NCBI RefSeq assembly: GCF_057098645.1
Contig: NZ_CM169472.1
Length of the DNA: 64,000 nucleotides
Reading direction: 5' to 3' (one strand)
A program made the position numbers and the translations under genes. This document shows positions 1 through 34,315 of the stretch, one piece after another; position 1 is the first letter of the stretch; every line of letters begins with the position of its first letter. The notes below the pieces were generated by a model. The model made no database searches and was not told where the DNA came from. It saw only the letters and a list, made by a program, of their open reading frames with translations.

Positions 1-1134
<1,134 letters not shown>

Positions 1135-2122: not shown

Positions 2123-4495
2123 ATGAAGCGAGTTCTTATTCCTGGCGTCATTTTATGTGGCGCTGATGTGGCGCAGGCCGTCGATGACAAAAACATGTAC
2201 ATGCATGTTTTTGAAGAGATGACGGTCTATGCTCCTGTCCCTGTACCCGTAAACGGCAACACGCATTACACCAGTGAAAGCATCGAGCGTTTACCGACCG
2301 GGAATGGCAATATCAGCGATCTGCTGAGAACCAACCCTGCGGTACGCATGGATTCAACGCAAAGTACCTCGTTGAACCAGGGAGATATTCGCCCGGAGAA
2401 AATCTCTATTCACGGTGCGTCGCCCTACCAGAATGCCTATTTGATTGATGGTATTAGTGCCACTAATAACCTGAACCCAGCGAATGAGTCCGATGCCAGT
2501 AGTGCAACCAATATTAGCGGAATGTCACAGGGGTATTATCTTGATGTCAGCTTCCTGGACAATGTGACGCTTTATGACAGTTTTGTGCCGGTTGAATTCG
2601 GTCGCTTCAATGGCGGGGTAATTGATGCAAAGATCAAACGCTTCAACGCTGATGATAGCAGCGTGAAACTGGGTTATCGCACTACGCGTTCGGACTGGTT
2701 AACATCGCATATCGATGAGAATAACAAGAGCGCATTTAATCAAGGCTCTTCAGGAAGTACTTATTACTCCCCAGATTTTAAAAAGAACTTTTATACCTTG
2801 TCGTTTAATCAGGAACTCGCTGATAACTTTGGCGTTACCGCCGGTTTATCGCGCCGCCAGTCTGATATCACCCGCGCGGATTATGTTTCGAATGACGGCA
2901 TTGTCGCCGGTCGGGCACAGTATAAAAACGTTATCGATACTGCATTGAGCAAATTTACCTGGTTTGCCAGCGACCGCTTTACCCACGATTTAACCTTAAA
3001 ATATACCGGCTCCAGCCGTGATTATAATACCAGCACCTTCCCGCAGTCTGATCGCGAAATGGGTAATAAATCCTATGGTCTGGCATGGGATATGGATACG
3101 CAGCTCGCATGGGCCAAACTACGTACCACCGTTGGTTGGGATCATATTAGTGATTATACCCGTCACGATCATGACATCTGGTACACCGAACTTTCATGTA
3201 CATATGGTGATATTACAGGGCGTTGCACCCGTGGCGGATTAGGACACATTTCCCAGGCTGTAGATAATTACACCTTCAAAACACGCCTGGACTGGCAAAA
3301 ATTCGCCGTGGGTAATGTTTCGCATCAACCCTACTTCGGCGCGGAATACATCTATTCCGATGCATGGACTGAACGCCATAACCAGTCTGAATCCTATGTG
3401 ATTAATGCTGCCGGAAAGAAAACTAACCATACCATTTACCATAAAGGTAAAGGCAGCCTGGGAATTGACAACTACACACTGTATATGGCGGATCGCATTA
3501 GCTGGCGTAATGTGTCATTAATGCCCGGCGTGCGGTATGACTATGACAACTATCTGTCAAACCACAATATCTCCCCGCGCTTTATGACGGAATGGGATAT
3601 TTTTGCTGATCAAACCTCAATGATTACAGCAGGTTATAACCGTTACTATGGCGGGAATATTCTTGATATGGGATTACGTGATATCCGCAATAGCTGGACG
3701 GAATCGGTATCAGGTAATAAAACCCTGACGCGTTATCAGGATTTGAAAACACCTTATAACGATGAACTGGCAATGGGATTGCAGCAAAAAATCGGTAAGA
3801 ACGTTATTGCGCGCGCAAACTATGTTTACCGTGAAGCGCATGATCAAATCAGCAAAAGCAGTCGTACCGACAGCGCGACTAAAACCACCATTACTGAATA
3901 TAACAACGACGGCAAAACCAAAACGCATTCGTTCAACCTCAGTTTTGAACTGGCCGAACCCCTGCATATCAGCCAGGTAGATATTAACCCGCAAATTGTC
4001 TTTAGCTATATCAAGAGCAAGGGTAACTTGTCGTTAAACAATGGTTATGAGGAGAGCAATACCGGTGATAACCAGGTGGTTTATAACGGTAATCTTGTCT
4101 CTTACGATAGCGTTCCAGTGGCGGATTTTAATAACCCATTAAAGATCTCCTTAAACATGGATTTCACGCATCAACCGAGCGGGTTGGTGTGGGCGAATAC
4201 GCTGGCCTGGCAAGAAGCGCGTAAAGCTCGCATTATCCTGGGTAAGACGAATGCGCAATACATCAGCGAATATTCAGATTACAAGCAGTATGTTGACGAA
4301 AAACTGGATAGCAGCCTGACCTGGGACACCCGCTTGTCCTGGACGCCACAATTTCTGAAACAACAAAACCTGACGATCAGTGCCGATATTCTCAATGTAC
4401 TGGATAGCAAAACCGCTGTTGATACAACGAATACCGGTGTGGCGACCTACGCCAGTGGCCGTACTTTCTGGCTTGATGTCAGCATGAAATTTTAA
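2123..4495 (+). CDS. yddB: TonB-dependent outer membrane receptor-like protein YddB
   Basis: 790 aa ORF, C-terminal aromatic residue, conserved position between yddA and pqqL. Confidence 0.85.
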   Translation: MKRVLIPGVILCGADVAQAVDDKNMYMHVFEEMTVYAPVPVPVNGNTHYTSESIERLPTGNGNISDLLRTNPAVRMDSTQSTSLNQGDIRPEKISIHGASPYQNAYLIDGISATNNLNPANESDASSATNISGMSQGYYLDVSFLDNVTLYDSFVPVEFGRFNGGVIDAKIKRFNADDSSVKLGYRTTRSDWLTSHIDENNKSAFNQGSSGSTYYSPDFKKNFYTLSFNQELADNFGVTAGLSRRQSDITRADYVSNDGIVAGRAQYKNVIDTALSKFTWFASDRFTHDLTLKYTGSSRDYNTSTFPQSDREMGNKSYGLAWDMDTQLAWAKLRTTVGWDHISDYTRHDHDIWYTELSCTYGDITGRCTRGGLGHISQAVDNYTFKTRLDWQKFAVGNVSHQPYFGAEYIYSDAWTERHNQSESYVINAAGKKTNHTIYHKGKGSLGIDNYTLYMADRISWRNVSLMPGVRYDYDNYLSNHNISPRFMTEWDIFADQTSMITAGYNRYYGGNILDMGLRDIRNSWTESVSGNKTLTRYQDLKTPYNDELAMGLQQKIGKNVIARANYVYREAHDQISKSSRTDSATKTTITEYNNDGKTKTHSFNLSFELAEPLHISQVDINPQIVFSYIKSKGNLSLNNGYEESNTGDNQVVYNGNLVSYDSVPVADFNNPLKISLNMDFTHQPSGLVWANTLAWQEARKARIILGKTNAQYISEYSDYKQYVDEKLDSSLTWDTRLSWTPQFLKQQNLTISADILNVLDSKTAVDTTNTGVATYASGRTFWLDVSMKF

Positions 4496-4539
4496 TAGTT
4501 CGGATTTTACTTAACCGGGTAAATTCGCCCGGTTTTCGC

Positions 4540-7335
4540 ATGGAGATAATTATGAGAAACCTCTGTTTCTTACTGACGTTAGTGGCAACTCTGTTGCTCC
4601 CCGGGCGGCTGATTGCCGCCGCCTTACCGCAGGATGAAAAGTTAATTACCGGACAACTGGACAATGGCTTGCGATATATGATTTATCCGCATGCTCATCC
4701 AAAGGATCAGGTAAATTTATGGCTGCAAATTCATACCGGTTCATTGCAGGAAGAAGACAATGAGCGCGGCGTGGCTCATTTTGTAGAACATATGATGTTT
4801 AACGGCACAAAAGCATGGCCGGGTAATAAAGTCATCGAAACATTTGAGTCAATGGGCCTGCGTTTTGGTCGCGATGTTAATGCCTATACCAGCTATGACG
4901 AAACGGTGTATCAGGTGAGTTTGCCGACTACGCAGAAACAAAATCTGCAACAAGTGATGGCAATCTTCAGTGAATGGAGTAATGCCGCAACCTTTGAAAA
5001 ACTCGAAGTAGACGCTGAACGTGGCGTAATTACTGAGGAATGGCGTGCCCATCAGGATGCGAAATGGCGCACCTCTCAGGCGCGCCGCCCTTTCCTGCTG
5101 GCTAATACCCGTAATTTAGACCGTGAACCTATCGGCCTGATGGATACTGTCGCCACGGTCACACCGGCACAATTGCGCCAATTTTATCAACGCTGGTATC
5201 AACCAAATAATATGACCTTTATCGTGGTTGGCGATATCGACAGTAAAGAAGCGCTGGCGCTGATAAAGGATAATTTAAGTAAGCTTCCGGCTAACAAAGC
5301 AGCTGAAAATCGCGTCTGGCCGACAAAAGCCGAAAATCACCTGCGCTTTAATATCATTAATGATAAAGAAAACCGGGTGAACGGCATCGCACTCTATTAT
5401 CGCCTGCCAATGGTACAAGTGAACGATGAGCAAAGCTTTATCGAACAAGCTGAATGGAGCATGTTAGTTCAGCTGTTCAATCAACGTCTGCAGGAACGCA
5501 TACAGTCGGGCGAGTTGAAGACTATTTCTGGCGGCACTGCGCGCAGCGTTAAAATTGCACCCGATTATCAGTCGCTGTTTTTCCGTGTAAATGCACGAGA
5601 CGATAATATGCAGGATGCTGCGAATGCATTAATGGCAGAGTTGGCAACCATTGATCAGCATGGTTTTTCTGCTGAAGAACTCGATGATGTCAAATCTACC
5701 CGCCTCACCTGGCTGAAAAATGCGGTTGATCAGCAAGCTGAACGTGATTTACGTATGCTGACCAGTCGCCTGGCATCCAGCTCATTAAATAATACGCCGT
5801 TCTTGTCGCCGGAAGAGACATATCAACTTTCGAAACGTCTGTGGCAGCAAATTACCGTGCAAAGTCTGACGGAAAAATGGCAGCAGTTAAGAAAGAACCA
5901 GGACGCATTTTGGGAGCAAATGGTAAACAATGAGGTTGCCGCCAATAAAGCATTGTCTCCTGCGGCTATCCTGGCGCTGGAAAAAGAGTACGCCAACAAA
6001 AAGCTGGCGGCTTACATCTTCCCTGGCAGAAATTTATCGTTAACAGTAGACGCTGACCCACAGGCGGAAATTAGCAGCAAAGAAACGCTGGCTGAGAATC
6101 TGACATCATTAACACTTTCCAATGGTGCCAGGGTTATTCTGGCAAAATCCGCGGGTGAAGAGCAAAAGCTACAAATTACTGCCGTATCGAATAAAGGCGA
6201 GTTAAGTTTCCCTGCGCAGCAAAAATCACTTATCGCGCTGGCAAATAAAGCAGTAAGCGGAAGCGGCGTTGGTGAACTCTCCTCTTCCAGCCTGAAACGC
6301 TGGAGTGCGGAAAACTCGGTAACCATGAGCAGTAAAGTCAGTGGCATGAATACATTGCTCTCCGTTAGCGCGCGGACTAATAACCCTGAACCTGGTTTCC
6401 AGTTGATTAACCAGCGAATCACCCACAGCACGATTAACGACAATATTTGGGCATCGCTACAAAATGCTCAAATTCAGGCGTTGAAAACGCTCGACCAGCG
6501 TCCAGCGGAGAAATTCGCCCAGCAGATGTATGAGACGCGCTATGCTGATGACCGCACGAAATTACTGCAAGAAAATCAGATTGCACAGTTTACTGCCGCA
6601 GATGCGCTGGCTGCCGATCGCCAGTTGTTTTCATCTCCAGCGGATATCACGTTTGTCATTGTCGGTAATGTCGCAGAAGACAAACTCGTGGCGTTAATTA
6701 CGCGTTACTTAGGCTCAATCAAACACTCTGATTCGCCATTAGCCGCAGGTAAACCATTAACTCGCGCGACGGACAACGCATCGGTTACTGTAAAAGAACA
6801 AAATGAACCTGTGGCACAGGTTTCACAGTGGAAGCGTTATGATTCCCGGACACCTGTTAATCTGGCGACGCGTATGGCGCTCGATGCTTTTAACGTCGCA
6901 CTAGCAAAAGATCTACGCGTTAATATTCGTGAACAGGCATCTGGGGCATACAGCGTTTCTTCTCGCCTCTCGGTTGATCCTCAGGCTAAAGATATCAGTC
7001 ATTTGCTGGCTTTTACTTGTCAACCAGAACGACATGATGAACTGTTAACGTTAGCGAATGAAGTGATGGTTAAGCGTCTGGCTAAAGGGATCAGTGAGCA
7101 AGAACTGAACGAATACCAGCAAAACGTTCAGCGCAGCCTCGATATCCAACAGCGTAGCGTTCAACAATTAGCGAACACTATTGTAAATAGTCTTATTCAA
7201 TATGACGATCCTGCAGCATGGACTGAGCAGGAGCAATTATTGAAACAAATGACGGTAGAGAATGTTAACACTGCCGTTAAACAATATCTTTCTCATCCGG
7301 TAAATACTTATACCGGAGTATTATTGCCAAAATAA
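4540..7335 (+). CDS. pqqL: Periplasmic M16-family zinc metallopeptidase PqqL
   Basis: 931 aa ORF with signal peptide and inverted zinc-binding motif HFVEH; an alternative start at 4552 (MRNLCF) has the better Shine-Dalgarno (GGAGA). Confidence 0.85.
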   Translation: MEIIMRNLCFLLTLVATLLLPGRLIAAALPQDEKLITGQLDNGLRYMIYPHAHPKDQVNLWLQIHTGSLQEEDNERGVAHFVEHMMFNGTKAWPGNKVIETFESMGLRFGRDVNAYTSYDETVYQVSLPTTQKQNLQQVMAIFSEWSNAATFEKLEVDAERGVITEEWRAHQDAKWRTSQARRPFLLANTRNLDREPIGLMDTVATVTPAQLRQFYQRWYQPNNMTFIVVGDIDSKEALALIKDNLSKLPANKAAENRVWPTKAENHLRFNIINDKENRVNGIALYYRLPMVQVNDEQSFIEQAEWSMLVQLFNQRLQERIQSGELKTISGGTARSVKIAPDYQSLFFRVNARDDNMQDAANALMAELATIDQHGFSAEELDDVKSTRLTWLKNAVDQQAERDLRMLTSRLASSSLNNTPFLSPEETYQLSKRLWQQITVQSLTEKWQQLRKNQDAFWEQMVNNEVAANKALSPAAILALEKEYANKKLAAYIFPGRNLSLTVDADPQAEISSKETLAENLTSLTLSNGARVILAKSAGEEQKLQITAVSNKGELSFPAQQKSLIALANKAVSGSGVGELSSSSLKRWSAENSVTMSSKVSGMNTLLSVSARTNNPEPGFQLINQRITHSTINDNIWASLQNAQIQALKTLDQRPAEKFAQQMYETRYADDRTKLLQENQIAQFTAADALAADRQLFSSPADITFVIVGNVAEDKLVALITRYLGSIKHSDSPLAAGKPLTRATDNASVTVKEQNEPVAQVSQWKRYDSRTPVNLATRMALDAFNVALAKDLRVNIREQASGAYSVSSRLSVDPQAKDISHLLAFTCQPERHDELLTLANEVMVKRLAKGISEQELNEYQQNVQRSLDIQQRSVQQLANTIVNSLIQYDDPAAWTEQEQLLKQMTVENVNTAVKQYLSHPVNTYTGVLLPK

Positions 7336-7597
7336 TAACAGCCCCGTCAACACATCGTTGGCGGGGATTTTAGCAATATTCGCTATTTTTATGTAATAAT
7401 TTTATAAATGCGTTCAAAATAATAACCAAGTACTAATAGTGATATTTTAAGGTCTGATTTTTACGTGATAATTCAGGAGGCACAGAAAGCGCATAAAAAT
7501 AACAACATAAAACACCTTACCACCACCCAAGAGCCCCCTACTATATTGTTTTTCAATGAAAAAATATTATTCACGCAATATCTCACGATAAATAACA

Positions 7598-34110: not shown

Positions 34111-34315
34111 AAAATGGCGCCTTTTACAGCGCCATTTGAAACTGATGACAAACGCAACATTGCCTGATGCGCTACGCTTATCAGGCCTACACGTTCACTG
34201 CAATCTATTGGATTTGAACGGTTTGTAGGCCGGATAAGGCGTTCACGCCGCATCCGGCATGAACAAAGCCTACGTTGTCTACAATATGAAAATGGCGCCT
34301 TTTACAGCGCCATTT
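34111..34315. repeat. BIME/REP cluster flanked by a duplicated terminator-like hairpin (AAAATGGCGCCTTTTACAGCGCCATTT at both ends)
   Basis: Two inverted REP-like motifs (GCCTGATGCGCTACGCTTATCAGGCCTAC and GTAGGCCGGATAAGGCGTTCACGCCGCATCCGGC) between two copies of the same ~27-bp hairpin. Confidence 0.6.

What the first reader, a model, noticed from the sequence alone, without database searches (positions are those of the whole stretch)
4513..4552. Hairpin between yddB and pqqL and ambiguous pqqL start
A stem-loop (AACCGGG-TAAATTCG-CCCGGTT followed by TTCG) sits immediately before the ATG at 4540. The better Shine-Dalgarno (GGAGA) serves the ATG at 4552. This suggests partial termination or attenuation between yddB and pqqL, and that the true PqqL N-terminus may be MRNLCF...
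Basis: seen in the sequence. Interest (0 to 1): 0.2.

Follow-up and report, generated by a model that had tools for sequence, protein, structure and literature searches.

The report
Hairpin and start site upstream pqqL
Between the E. coli iron-regulated genes yddB and pqqL lies a small, conserved RNA hairpin of unproven function, and PqqL almost certainly starts four codons later than the K-12 reference annotation says; this is an ordinary operon feature plus an annotation detail that RefSeq's automatic annotation and published data already point to.

Summary
A 7-8 bp GC-rich hairpin (4513-4534, -12.8 kcal/mol) lies 17 nt after the yddB stop, followed by UUUU, ATG 4540, GGAG 4542-4545 and ATG 4552.

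The start-site reading is well supported but not new:
- All eight PGAP-annotated genomes I opened start pqqL at 4552. Only the curated K-12 record uses 4540.
- Published in vitro initiation-site mapping (INRI-seq) shows about 20 times more signal next to 4552 than at 4540.
- DeepRibo flagged PqqL as its top alternative-start case in E. coli.
- Anti-SD pairing is -6.4 kcal/mol for 4552 against -2.4 for 4540.
- The signal peptide is cleaved (mature N-terminus AALPQD), so ordinary N-terminal proteomics cannot decide.

The termination or attenuation reading is plausible but unproven:
- The hairpin block is conserved about as well as coding sequence across three Escherichia species, and the only stem changes keep G·U pairs.
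- Against it, the U-run is short and the consensus scan does not call a terminator.
- The hairpin is weaker than all neighbouring operon-end hairpins.
- Stem-weakening alleles occur in about 13% of genomes, and no compensatory changes exist.
- RT-PCR shows co-transcription, and no 3'-end data exist for inducing conditions.

Low interest.

The parts
2123..4495 (+). yddB coding sequence (TonB-dependent receptor). The stop TAA is at 4493-4495, followed by an in-frame TAG at 4496-4498.
   Evidence: ORF list. RefSeq annotation of an identical region.
4496..4512 (+). Post-stop spacer that evolves at a near-neutral rate.
   Evidence: 2, 3 and 3 substitutions in 17 nt against three Escherichia lineages.
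4513..4534 (+). RNA hairpin. The 5' arm is AACCGGG(U), the loop is (U)AAAUUC(G), and the 3' arm is (G)CCCGGUU.
   Evidence: Sequence. Fold energy -12.8 kcal/mol, z = -3.3. 0, 2 and 0 substitutions in 22 nt across Escherichia; the two changes (AA to GG) keep G.U pairs. One copy per genome.
4533..4536 (+). Run of four U. The first two pair with A4513/A4514. This is the only U-tract available for intrinsic termination.
   Evidence: Sequence. Not called by the terminator scan.
4540..4542 (+). Upstream in-frame ATG (ATG1), the start used in NC_000913.3 (931 aa). It probably just forms part of the Shine-Dalgarno region.
   Evidence: No SD pairing, -2.4 kcal/mol. INRI-seq gives 0-6.8 CPM.
4542..4546 (+). 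Shine-Dalgarno GGAGA serving ATG 4552.
   Evidence: Anti-SD duplex -6.4 kcal/mol, with 6 nt between GGAG and the ATG. Invariant in all sequences aligned.
4552..4554 (+). Most likely true pqqL start codon (ATG2; MRNLCF...).
   Evidence: PGAP annotation in eight records. INRI-seq peak of 126.9 CPM assigned to the adjacent ATT at +9.
4552..4617 (+). Signal peptide coding region (MRNLCFLLTLVATLLLPGRLIA). The mature protein starts AALPQD at 4618.
   Evidence: Edman sequence AALPQD in Grinter 2019. PDB chains 6ofs and 6oft start at AALPQD. Translation.
4552..7335 (+). pqqL coding sequence (periplasmic M16 metalloprotease), 927 aa from ATG2.
4553..4572 (+). Weak AU-rich predicted hairpin beginning inside ATG2. 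It may lower initiation.
   Evidence: Predicted in the 81- and 131-nt folds. Not tested further.

Best explanation
yddA-yddB-pqqL is one Fur-controlled transcript. Seventeen nucleotides after the yddB stop, the mRNA folds into a conserved 7-8 bp GC-rich hairpin followed by UUUU.

I take this to be a cis-acting RNA element on the + strand. Most likely it is a leaky intrinsic terminator, a 3'-end-protecting stem-loop, or both. Either would make pqqL mRNA somewhat less abundant or less stable than yddA-yddB mRNA.

Read-through transcripts are translated from ATG 4552, using the GGAG at 4542-4545. ATG 4540 is part of that ribosome-binding region rather than the start. The resulting 22-residue signal peptide is cleaved to give mature AALPQD.

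What is shown: the structure, its conservation, co-transcription, the SD geometry, in vitro initiation next to 4552, and signal-peptide cleavage. What is inferred: that the hairpin forms 3' ends or changes the yddB:pqqL ratio.

My component probabilities are:
- Start at 4552: about 0.9.
- Hairpin under functional constraint: about 0.6.
- Leaky terminator or 3'-end element specifically: about 0.35-0.4.
For: Structure and position:
- The hairpin is real and stable, at -12.8 kcal/mol and z = -3.3.
- It sits 17 nt after a stop codon in the transcribed orientation and is followed directly by UUUU.

Conservation:
- The conserved block starts exactly at the base of the hairpin. Positions 4496-4512 change at 12-18%, while 4513-4551 shows 1, 3 and 0 changes in 39 nt.
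- For comparison, third-codon positions differ by 11-30%, and the pqqL-gadB spacer differs by 17-32%.
- The only interspecies stem changes (A4513/A4514 to GG) keep pairing as G.U. That works only for + strand RNA.
- The commonest E. coli alleles keep the fold at or below -11.9 kcal/mol, and one loop allele strengthens it to -13.8.

Other features:
- No promoter-like site precedes pqqL, so pqqL depends on read-through. This is consistent with RT-PCR co-transcription and tight co-expression.
- The U content of the tail (4 U) is no lower than that of several operon-end hairpins nearby, for example the one after pqqL, AUUUUAGC.

Start site: PGAP annotation, INRI-seq, DeepRibo, and SD and opening energies.
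Against: - The U-run is short, two of its U pair in the stem, and the consensus terminator scan does not call the site.
- The hairpin is 2-10 kcal/mol weaker than every clear operon-end hairpin in the neighbourhood. It lies within the range of chance hairpins in coding DNA.
- The 6-8 nt loop is longer than typical for a terminator, and it is fully conserved between species. A pure terminator would not require that.
- Alleles that weaken the stem are tolerated. A4513T occurs in 577 and C4529G (-8.4 kcal/mol) in 34 of 4,635 records.
- No compensatory double changes were found in genomes or metagenomes.
- The block is no more conserved than 11-18% of equally long coding windows.
- All three genes rise more than 30-fold together, and the junction is spanned by RT-PCR products.
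- No 3' end is listed at the junction in Adams et al. 2021, although the operon is repressed in those conditions.
- For the start site: INRI-seq is an in vitro method, it names ATT (+9) rather than ATG (+12), and it still scores ATG1 as weakly 'identified'. In vivo Ribo-RET has no signal at either site.
Confidence: 0.4

Rival explanations
1. The hairpin is an incidental palindrome with no role of its own. Its apparent conservation reflects the low divergence of a cluster found only in Escherichia, together with constraint on the adjacent ribosome-binding region.
For: - Fold energy is unremarkable: 2.5% of 36-nt windows fold as well, and chance hairpins in coding DNA reach -18 kcal/mol.
- 18% of 22-nt coding windows are equally conserved.
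- Only three diverged lineages exist for comparison.
- There is no compensatory covariation.
- Stem-weakening alleles are found in about 13% of genomes.
- There is no Rfam match.
Against: - Non-coding DNA immediately upstream (4496-4512) and the pqqL-gadB spacer diverge at 12-32%. The 22-nt hairpin shows 0, 2 and 0 changes; for E1V33, P(0 of 22) is about 2e-4 at the spacer rate.
- The only stem substitutions preserve pairing as G.U.
- The hairpin lies 18-39 nt upstream of ATG 4552, beyond the core SD and start region.
Confidence: 0.25
2. The hairpin belongs to the pqqL translation-initiation region. It would act as a structural insulator or standby platform, keeping the SD and ATG 4552 single-stranded and presenting an A/U-rich loop to the 30S subunit or protein S1. 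It would then tune PqqL translation rather than transcription.
For: - The whole block 4513-4551, loop included, is conserved as one unit.
- The INRI-seq template begins at the hairpin and still yields a clear initiation peak.
- Predicted longer-range folds place the initiation region in a multi-branch loop closed by yddB 3' sequence. The 131-nt fold has z = -3.2.
- Opening energy for -13..+14 around ATG2 is 8.8 kcal/mol, against 12.7 for ATG1.
Against: - There is no direct test.
- The peak-to-template ratio for pqqL in INRI-seq is low, about 0.08 against about 1.4 for yddB. This is a crude comparison, but it argues against an enhancer role.
- The hairpin ends 17 nt before ATG2, at the edge of the ribosome footprint.
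Confidence: 0.15
3. ATG 4540 is the true or co-used start, as in the K-12 reference annotation, giving the 931-aa precursor MEIIMRN...
For: - It is the longest ORF, and the ATG is conserved in every sequence examined.
- It is the curated NC_000913.3 annotation.
- INRI-seq formally scores the annotated site as identified, with 5.9 and 6.8 CPM in 2 of 5 replicates.
- The 26-residue signal peptide it implies would still be plausible.
Against: - There is no SD (-2.4 kcal/mol), and its upstream region is locked in the hairpin.
- The in vitro signal is about 20 times lower than at the downstream site.
- PGAP chose 4552 in all eight records.
- Conservation of this ATG is explained by its overlap with the SD (AUGGAG).
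- The n-region MEIIMRN has net charge 0, against +1 for MRN (inference from the sequence).
Confidence: 0.08
4. The inverted repeat is a DNA operator for a dimeric transcription factor acting inside the operon.
For: - It is a 7-8-7 inverted repeat spanning 22 bp.
- The loop or spacer sequence is conserved between species.
Against: - The AA to GG change in one lineage breaks DNA symmetry but keeps RNA pairing.
- There is no promoter-like site nearby.
- The sequence occurs once per genome.
- No known factor with this motif came up in anything I read.
Confidence: 0.04

Closest known systems
Leaky intra-operon intrinsic terminators or attenuators in E. coli, for example the rplL-rpoB attenuator and T1 in rpsU-dnaG-rpoD (from established knowledge, not tested here)
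   Same: A GC-rich stem-loop followed by U residues in an intercistronic gap of a co-transcribed operon. Downstream genes depend on read-through.
   Different: - The U-tract here is only UUUU, partly paired.
- The loop is long (6-8 nt) and conserved.
- The stem is weaker than neighbouring terminators.
- No 3' ends or termination efficiency have been measured.
Intercistronic mRNA-stabilising stem-loops, for example the REP element between malE and malF (from established knowledge)
   Same: A stable hairpin just downstream of an upstream cistron. It could block 3'-to-5' exonucleases and give more product from the upstream gene.
   Different: It is not a REP or BIME element, because the sequence is single-copy per genome. 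It is also much smaller than REP pairs. No decay data exist.
Start codons mis-annotated by a few codons and corrected by initiation-site mapping, for example uidR, four codons too long (INRI-seq paper, PMC9825163)
   Same: - The annotated ATG lacks signal.
[quoted passage not shown]
- The K-12 reference annotation is too long by 4 residues.
   Different: For pqqL the published table names the adjacent ATT (+9) rather than ATG (+12). There is no in vivo signal and no N-terminal peptide, because the signal peptide is cleaved.
OxyS-fhlA two-site antisense repression (from established knowledge). pqqL is listed as an OxyS target in PMC3318445.
   Same: OxyS has exact complements to the SD region (UGGAGAU with OxyS 95-101, the 3' stem-loop) and to a second site just inside the coding region (UGAGAAAC with OxyS 52-59). 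The two sites bracket ATG 4552.
   Different: The matches are only 7 and 8 nt and were found post hoc. The second OxyS segment differs from the one used on fhlA. No regulatory experiment on the pqqL leader was found.

Membership tests
Intrinsic (Rho-independent) terminator | GC-rich stem-loop in the transcript, just downstream of a gene in the same orientation | tested here: met
   7-8 bp stem with 5 G-C pairs, -12.8 kcal/mol, 17 nt after the yddB stop. It is weaker than all local operon-end hairpins, which range from -15 to -23.
Intrinsic (Rho-independent) terminator | U-rich tract of about 7-9 nt immediately 3' of the stem | tested here: not met
   Only UUUU is present (4533-4536), two of these bases are inside the stem, and CGCAUGG follows. 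The consensus scan, which needs at least 5 T in 8, does not report the site.
Intrinsic (Rho-independent) terminator | RNA 3' ends mapped at the U-tract, or termination in vitro | not testable with these tools
   Adams 2021 supplements list no 3' end at the junction, but the operon is Fur-repressed in those cultures. Other 3'-end data sets were not held as text.
Conserved structured RNA element | Base pairs maintained by compensatory or wobble-compatible substitutions | tested here: inconclusive
   One lineage has AA to GG, which keeps G.U pairs. No double compensatory change was found in 10 aligned genomes or 16 metagenome loci. The stem-breaking alleles A4513T (577 records) and C4529G (34 records) exist.
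Conserved structured RNA element | Conservation above the neutral rate | tested here: met
   0, 2 and 0 changes in 22 nt, against 12-32% divergence in flanking non-coding DNA and 11-30% at third codon positions. It is not above the level of well-conserved coding windows.
Repetitive extragenic palindromes (REP/BIME) or any curated RNA family | Multiple copies per genome, or a match to an Rfam model | tested here: not met
   Median of 1 place per genome for the 80-nt query. No relevant Rfam hit even at E up to 10.
Canonical SD-led start at ATG 4552 | Shine-Dalgarno complementarity at 5-9 nt spacing | tested here: met
   GGAG at 4542-4545, -6.4 kcal/mol, 6-nt spacer. ATG 4540 has -2.4 kcal/mol.
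Canonical SD-led start at ATG 4552 | Initiation complexes mapped to the codon | tested here: inconclusive
   Published INRI-seq shows a peak of 126.9 CPM in 3 of 5 replicates, assigned to ATT at +9, which abuts ATG at +12. The annotated ATG gives 0-6.8 CPM. The method is in vitro with +/-3 nt resolution, and in vivo Ribo-RET gives 0 at both sites.
Sec-type signal peptide | Positive n-region, hydrophobic core, and cleavage by signal peptidase I | tested here: met
   MRN / LCFLLTLVATLLL / PGRLIA, followed by AALPQD. Cleavage was shown by Edman sequencing in Grinter 2019. Both candidate starts are compatible with this, so it does not discriminate between them.
OxyS antisense target (fhlA-like) | Complementarity of OxyS to the SD and to a second nearby site | tested here: met
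   7-nt and 8-nt exact complements bracket ATG 4552. Only 0.40% of 30-nt windows in the 64-kb window carry two such sites.
OxyS antisense target (fhlA-like) | OxyS-dependent change in translation that is lost and then restored by compensatory mutations | not testable with these tools
   The only evidence found is a compiled table listing pqqL as an OxyS target. No further paper was found.

The most novel reading that the evidence does not exclude
The conserved 39-nt block (a hairpin with an invariant loop, plus the SD and start region) could be a regulatory platform rather than a passive terminator. Under peroxide stress, the small RNA OxyS would pair with the SD (4541-4547) and with codons 1-3 (4553-4560) on either side of ATG 4552. 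This would shut off synthesis of the PqqL protease of an iron-linked protein-import system. The upstream hairpin would set the accessibility of this region or form the 3' end of the yddAB message once pqqL translation stops.
Probability: 0.08. Interest if true: 0.45.

Novelty: new member of a known kind. Interest (0 to 1): 0.12.

Why it matters
The practical value is modest.
- The K-12 reference record, and residue numbering in the literature that follows it (for example the catalytic His80/His84 in the PqqL structure paper, which matches 931-aa numbering), are probably four residues too long. This affects signal-peptide models, expression constructs and clean deletions.
- If the hairpin does trim read-through or stabilise the upstream message, it would set the ratio of the outer-membrane receptor YddB to the periplasmic protease PqqL. 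This protease-associated import system contributes to fitness of uropathogenic E. coli.

Neither point changes how such operons are understood.

Tried and rejected
- Rfam search of 4000-5000 at a permissive threshold gave nothing relevant.
- Repeat-element idea (REP/BIME): rejected, because the sequence is single-copy per genome.
- Wider comparative analysis: close pqqL orthologues exist only in three Escherichia species-level lineages, and the next best hits are 41% identical or less with no comparable junction. Real covariation analysis is therefore impossible.
- Metagenome scan anchored on the conserved flanks returned 16 loci. Fourteen match the reference and two carry A4513T, so no new variation was found.
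- 3'-end data: Adams 2021 has no end at the junction. Supplements of four other papers were not held or had no entry.
- Nascent N-terminome data (TRAINSPOTTER): no PqqL entry.
- Solved structures start at the mature AALPQD and are uninformative about the start.
- Internal promoter for pqqL: no promoter-like match in the last 300 nt of yddB on the + strand.
- Minus-strand terminator: the tail would be UUAAGUAAAA, which is not U-rich.
- RyhB pairing, tested because RyhB is reported to raise yddAB-pqqL RNA: the junction scores -14 to -15 against a regional mean of -14.0, so nothing special.
- Whole-sRNA duplex energies with OxyS were uninformative, at the 36th percentile. Only the short exact matches are noted.
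Full report
**What is there**

The window is Escherichia coli. Positions 4300-4800 are 100% identical to E. coli O145 RM9872, and the locus is present in 4,639 of 5,426 complete genomes.

yddB (2123-4495) ends AAA TTT TAA TAG. Seventeen nucleotides later the sequence reads AACCGGG-TAAATTCG-CCCGGTT (4513-4534). Then come TTCGC, ATG (4540), GGAGA (4542-4546), and a second in-frame ATG (4552).

The long ORF from 4540 is 931 codons. As RNA the hairpin has 7 Watson-Crick pairs plus a U.G pair. Its energy is -12.8 kcal/mol, z = -3.3 against shuffles.

**Is it more than chance?**

Not on energy alone.
- 2.5% of all 36-nt windows of the 64-kb window fold at least as well (196 loci on the + strand). 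A perfect 7-bp GC-rich inverted repeat occurs at about 17 loci.
- I measured the best hairpin downstream of 35 annotated stop codons in this region. Clear operon-end hairpins are -15 to -23 kcal/mol. The yddB hairpin is weaker than all of them.
- It falls inside the range seen by chance in coding DNA downstream of overlapping genes.
- The consensus terminator scan does not report it. Only four U follow, and two of them pair in the stem.

**Conservation**

Close pqqL orthologues exist only in Escherichia. They are E. coli, Escherichia sp. MOD1-EC7003 (96% protein identity) and Escherichia sp. E1V33 (92%). The next hits are 41% or less. This agrees with the statement that the cluster is restricted to E. 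coli and Shigella.

Substitutions against these three lineages, by segment:

| Segment | Substitutions (L004, L005, L006) | Length |
|---|---|---|
| Post-stop spacer 4496-4512 | 2, 3, 3 | 17 nt |
| Hairpin 4513-4534 | 0, 2, 0 | 22 nt |
| 4535-4551 | 1, 1, 0 | 17 nt |

Neutral-like comparators diverge much faster. Third-codon positions differ by 11-30%, and the pqqL-gadB spacer differs by 17-32%.

The two hairpin changes are A4513/A4514 to GG. They keep pairing as G.U and leave the energy at -12.7 kcal/mol. That is compatible with a + strand RNA structure, but not with a minus-strand RNA or a symmetric DNA site.

The block is, however, no better conserved than 11-18% of equally long coding windows.

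Allele counts within E. coli, over 4486-4565 in 4,635 records:

| Allele | Records | Effect |
|---|---|---|
| Reference | 3,562 | -12.8 kcal/mol |
| A4513T | 577 | Loses the bottom pair, -11.9 |
| C4526T | 294 | Loop change that adds a pair, -13.8 |
| C4529G | 34 | Mid-stem mismatch, -8.4 |

No compensatory double change was seen in ten aligned genomes or sixteen metagenome loci. The sequence is single-copy per genome and matches no Rfam family.

Overall, the hairpin looks constrained. The evidence is modest and cannot distinguish between mechanisms.

**Transcription context**

- RT-PCR amplicons span adjacent genes of yddA-yddB-pqqL in CFT073.
- All three genes rise more than 30-fold in urine and rise in a fur mutant.
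- Expression compendia show tight co-expression, even though older transcription-unit annotation split yddAB from pqqL.
- No promoter-like site lies in the last 300 nt of yddB.

pqqL therefore depends on read-through, and the hairpin is at most a partial terminator.

The only 3'-end catalogue I could read lists no end at the junction. It lists one bicyclomycin-sensitive site inside pqqL. The operon is Fur-repressed in those cultures, so the absence says little. Four other data sets were not available.

**The start codon**

- The curated K-12 record starts pqqL at the upstream ATG, giving 2,796 nt and 931 aa.
- All eight PGAP-annotated genomes I opened start at the downstream ATG, giving 927 aa.
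- The 16S anti-SD pairs with GGAG 4542-4545 at -6.4 kcal/mol, with a 6-nt spacer to ATG 4552.
- The 20 nt before ATG 4540 give -2.4 kcal/mol and lie partly in the hairpin.
- Opening -13..+14 costs 12.7 kcal/mol for ATG 4540 and 8.8 for ATG 4552.

Published INRI-seq data bear on this directly. The method traps initiation complexes with retapamulin in vitro on synthetic transcripts. The pqqL template starts at the hairpin.
- The annotated start gives 0, 0, 0, 5.9 and 6.8 CPM.
- An 'alternative TIS' gives 126.9 CPM in 3 of 5 replicates. It is assigned to the in-frame ATT at +9.
- ATT (+9) directly abuts ATG 4552 (+12). I therefore read the peak as initiation at ATG 4552. This is an inference from SD spacing and codon strength.
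- In vivo Ribo-RET has no signal at either site.

DeepRibo shows PqqL as its highest-ranking alternative-start prediction in E. coli, but the coordinate is not given in the text I could read.

Both ATGs are conserved everywhere, so conservation does not discriminate. ATG 4540 overlaps the SD (AUGGAG).

Edman sequencing of PqqL from cells gives AALPQD, and the crystallised chains start there. The signal peptide is therefore removed, and ordinary N-terminal proteomics cannot settle the question. The His80/His84 numbering in the structure paper follows the 931-aa form.

**Mechanism**

My best reading is a cis-acting RNA stem-loop that makes some transcripts end just after yddB, or protects such ends. 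Read-through mRNA is translated from ATG 4552.

I put the probabilities as follows:
- Start at 4552: about 0.9.
- Hairpin functionally constrained: about 0.6.
- Leaky terminator or 3'-end element specifically: about 0.35-0.4.

The rival readings are an incidental palindrome (0.25), a translation-region insulator or standby structure (0.15), ATG 4540 as a real or co-used start (0.08), and a DNA operator (0.04).

**Side lead**

pqqL appears in a compiled list of OxyS targets. OxyS carries exact complements to UGGAGAU (4541-4547, the SD) and to UGAGAAAC (4553-4560), on either side of ATG 4552. Only 0.40% of 30-nt windows of the 64-kb window have two such sites. This was found post hoc and is untested.

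RyhB is reported to raise yddAB-pqqL RNA, but it shows no special complementarity at the junction.

**Verdict**

- The start-site interpretation is supported, but it is already embodied in RefSeq PGAP annotation and visible in two published data sets.
- The attenuation idea remains a reasonable, untested hypothesis about an ordinary kind of element.
- Interest is low.

Noticed in passing
window 1-1134: The window begins inside an IS5-like (ISKpn26-family) element with a 326-aa transposase ORF at 86-1066 on the minus strand. The element interrupts yddA: homology to intact yddA resumes at window 1135, which is yddA nucleotide 736. In this strain the Fur-regulated yddA promoter is therefore separated from yddB-pqqL. 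Only 13 complete genomes match at least 80% of this arrangement.
   Followed up: partly
L089 (E. coli GPEC1185), equivalent to window 4490-4522: A 32-nt tandem duplication (TTTAATAGTTCGGATTTTACTTAACCGGGTAA) duplicates the yddB stop region and the 5' arm of the hairpin. PGAP accordingly ends yddB at the first copy.
   Followed up: no
window 4548 (L004 and L005): An A-to-G allele turns ATA into ATG. This creates a third in-frame ATG at 4546, between the two candidate starts (ATG GAG ATG ATT ATG).
   Followed up: no
window 4541-4547 and 4553-4560: Exact 7-nt and 8-nt complements to the small RNA OxyS (positions 95-101 and 52-59) bracket ATG 4552. pqqL is listed as an OxyS target in PMC3318445. 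Only 0.40% of 30-nt windows carry two such sites.
   Followed up: partly
window 4471-4483 with 4573-4586; 4553-4572: The 131-nt fold (z = -3.2) predicts long-range pairing between the last codons of yddB and codons 8-12 of pqqL. This would enclose the whole initiation region. It also predicts a weak hairpin starting inside ATG 4552. Translation of yddB would open the long-range helix.
   Followed up: no
window about 6240 (MG1655 1573502, minus strand): The supplement of Adams et al. 2021 lists a bicyclomycin-responsive (Rho-type) 3' end internal to pqqL.
   Followed up: no
window 7336-7560: The pqqL-gadB intergenic region is far more diverged between Escherichia lineages (17-32%, with indels) than the flanking genes.
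   Followed up: no
window 34114-34135 and 34292-34313: Two identical copies of the palindrome ATGGCGC-CTTTTACA-GCGCCAT lie 178 nt apart, at the two ends of the yddM-fdnI intergenic region. They look like paired terminator hairpins for the convergent genes.
   Followed up: no
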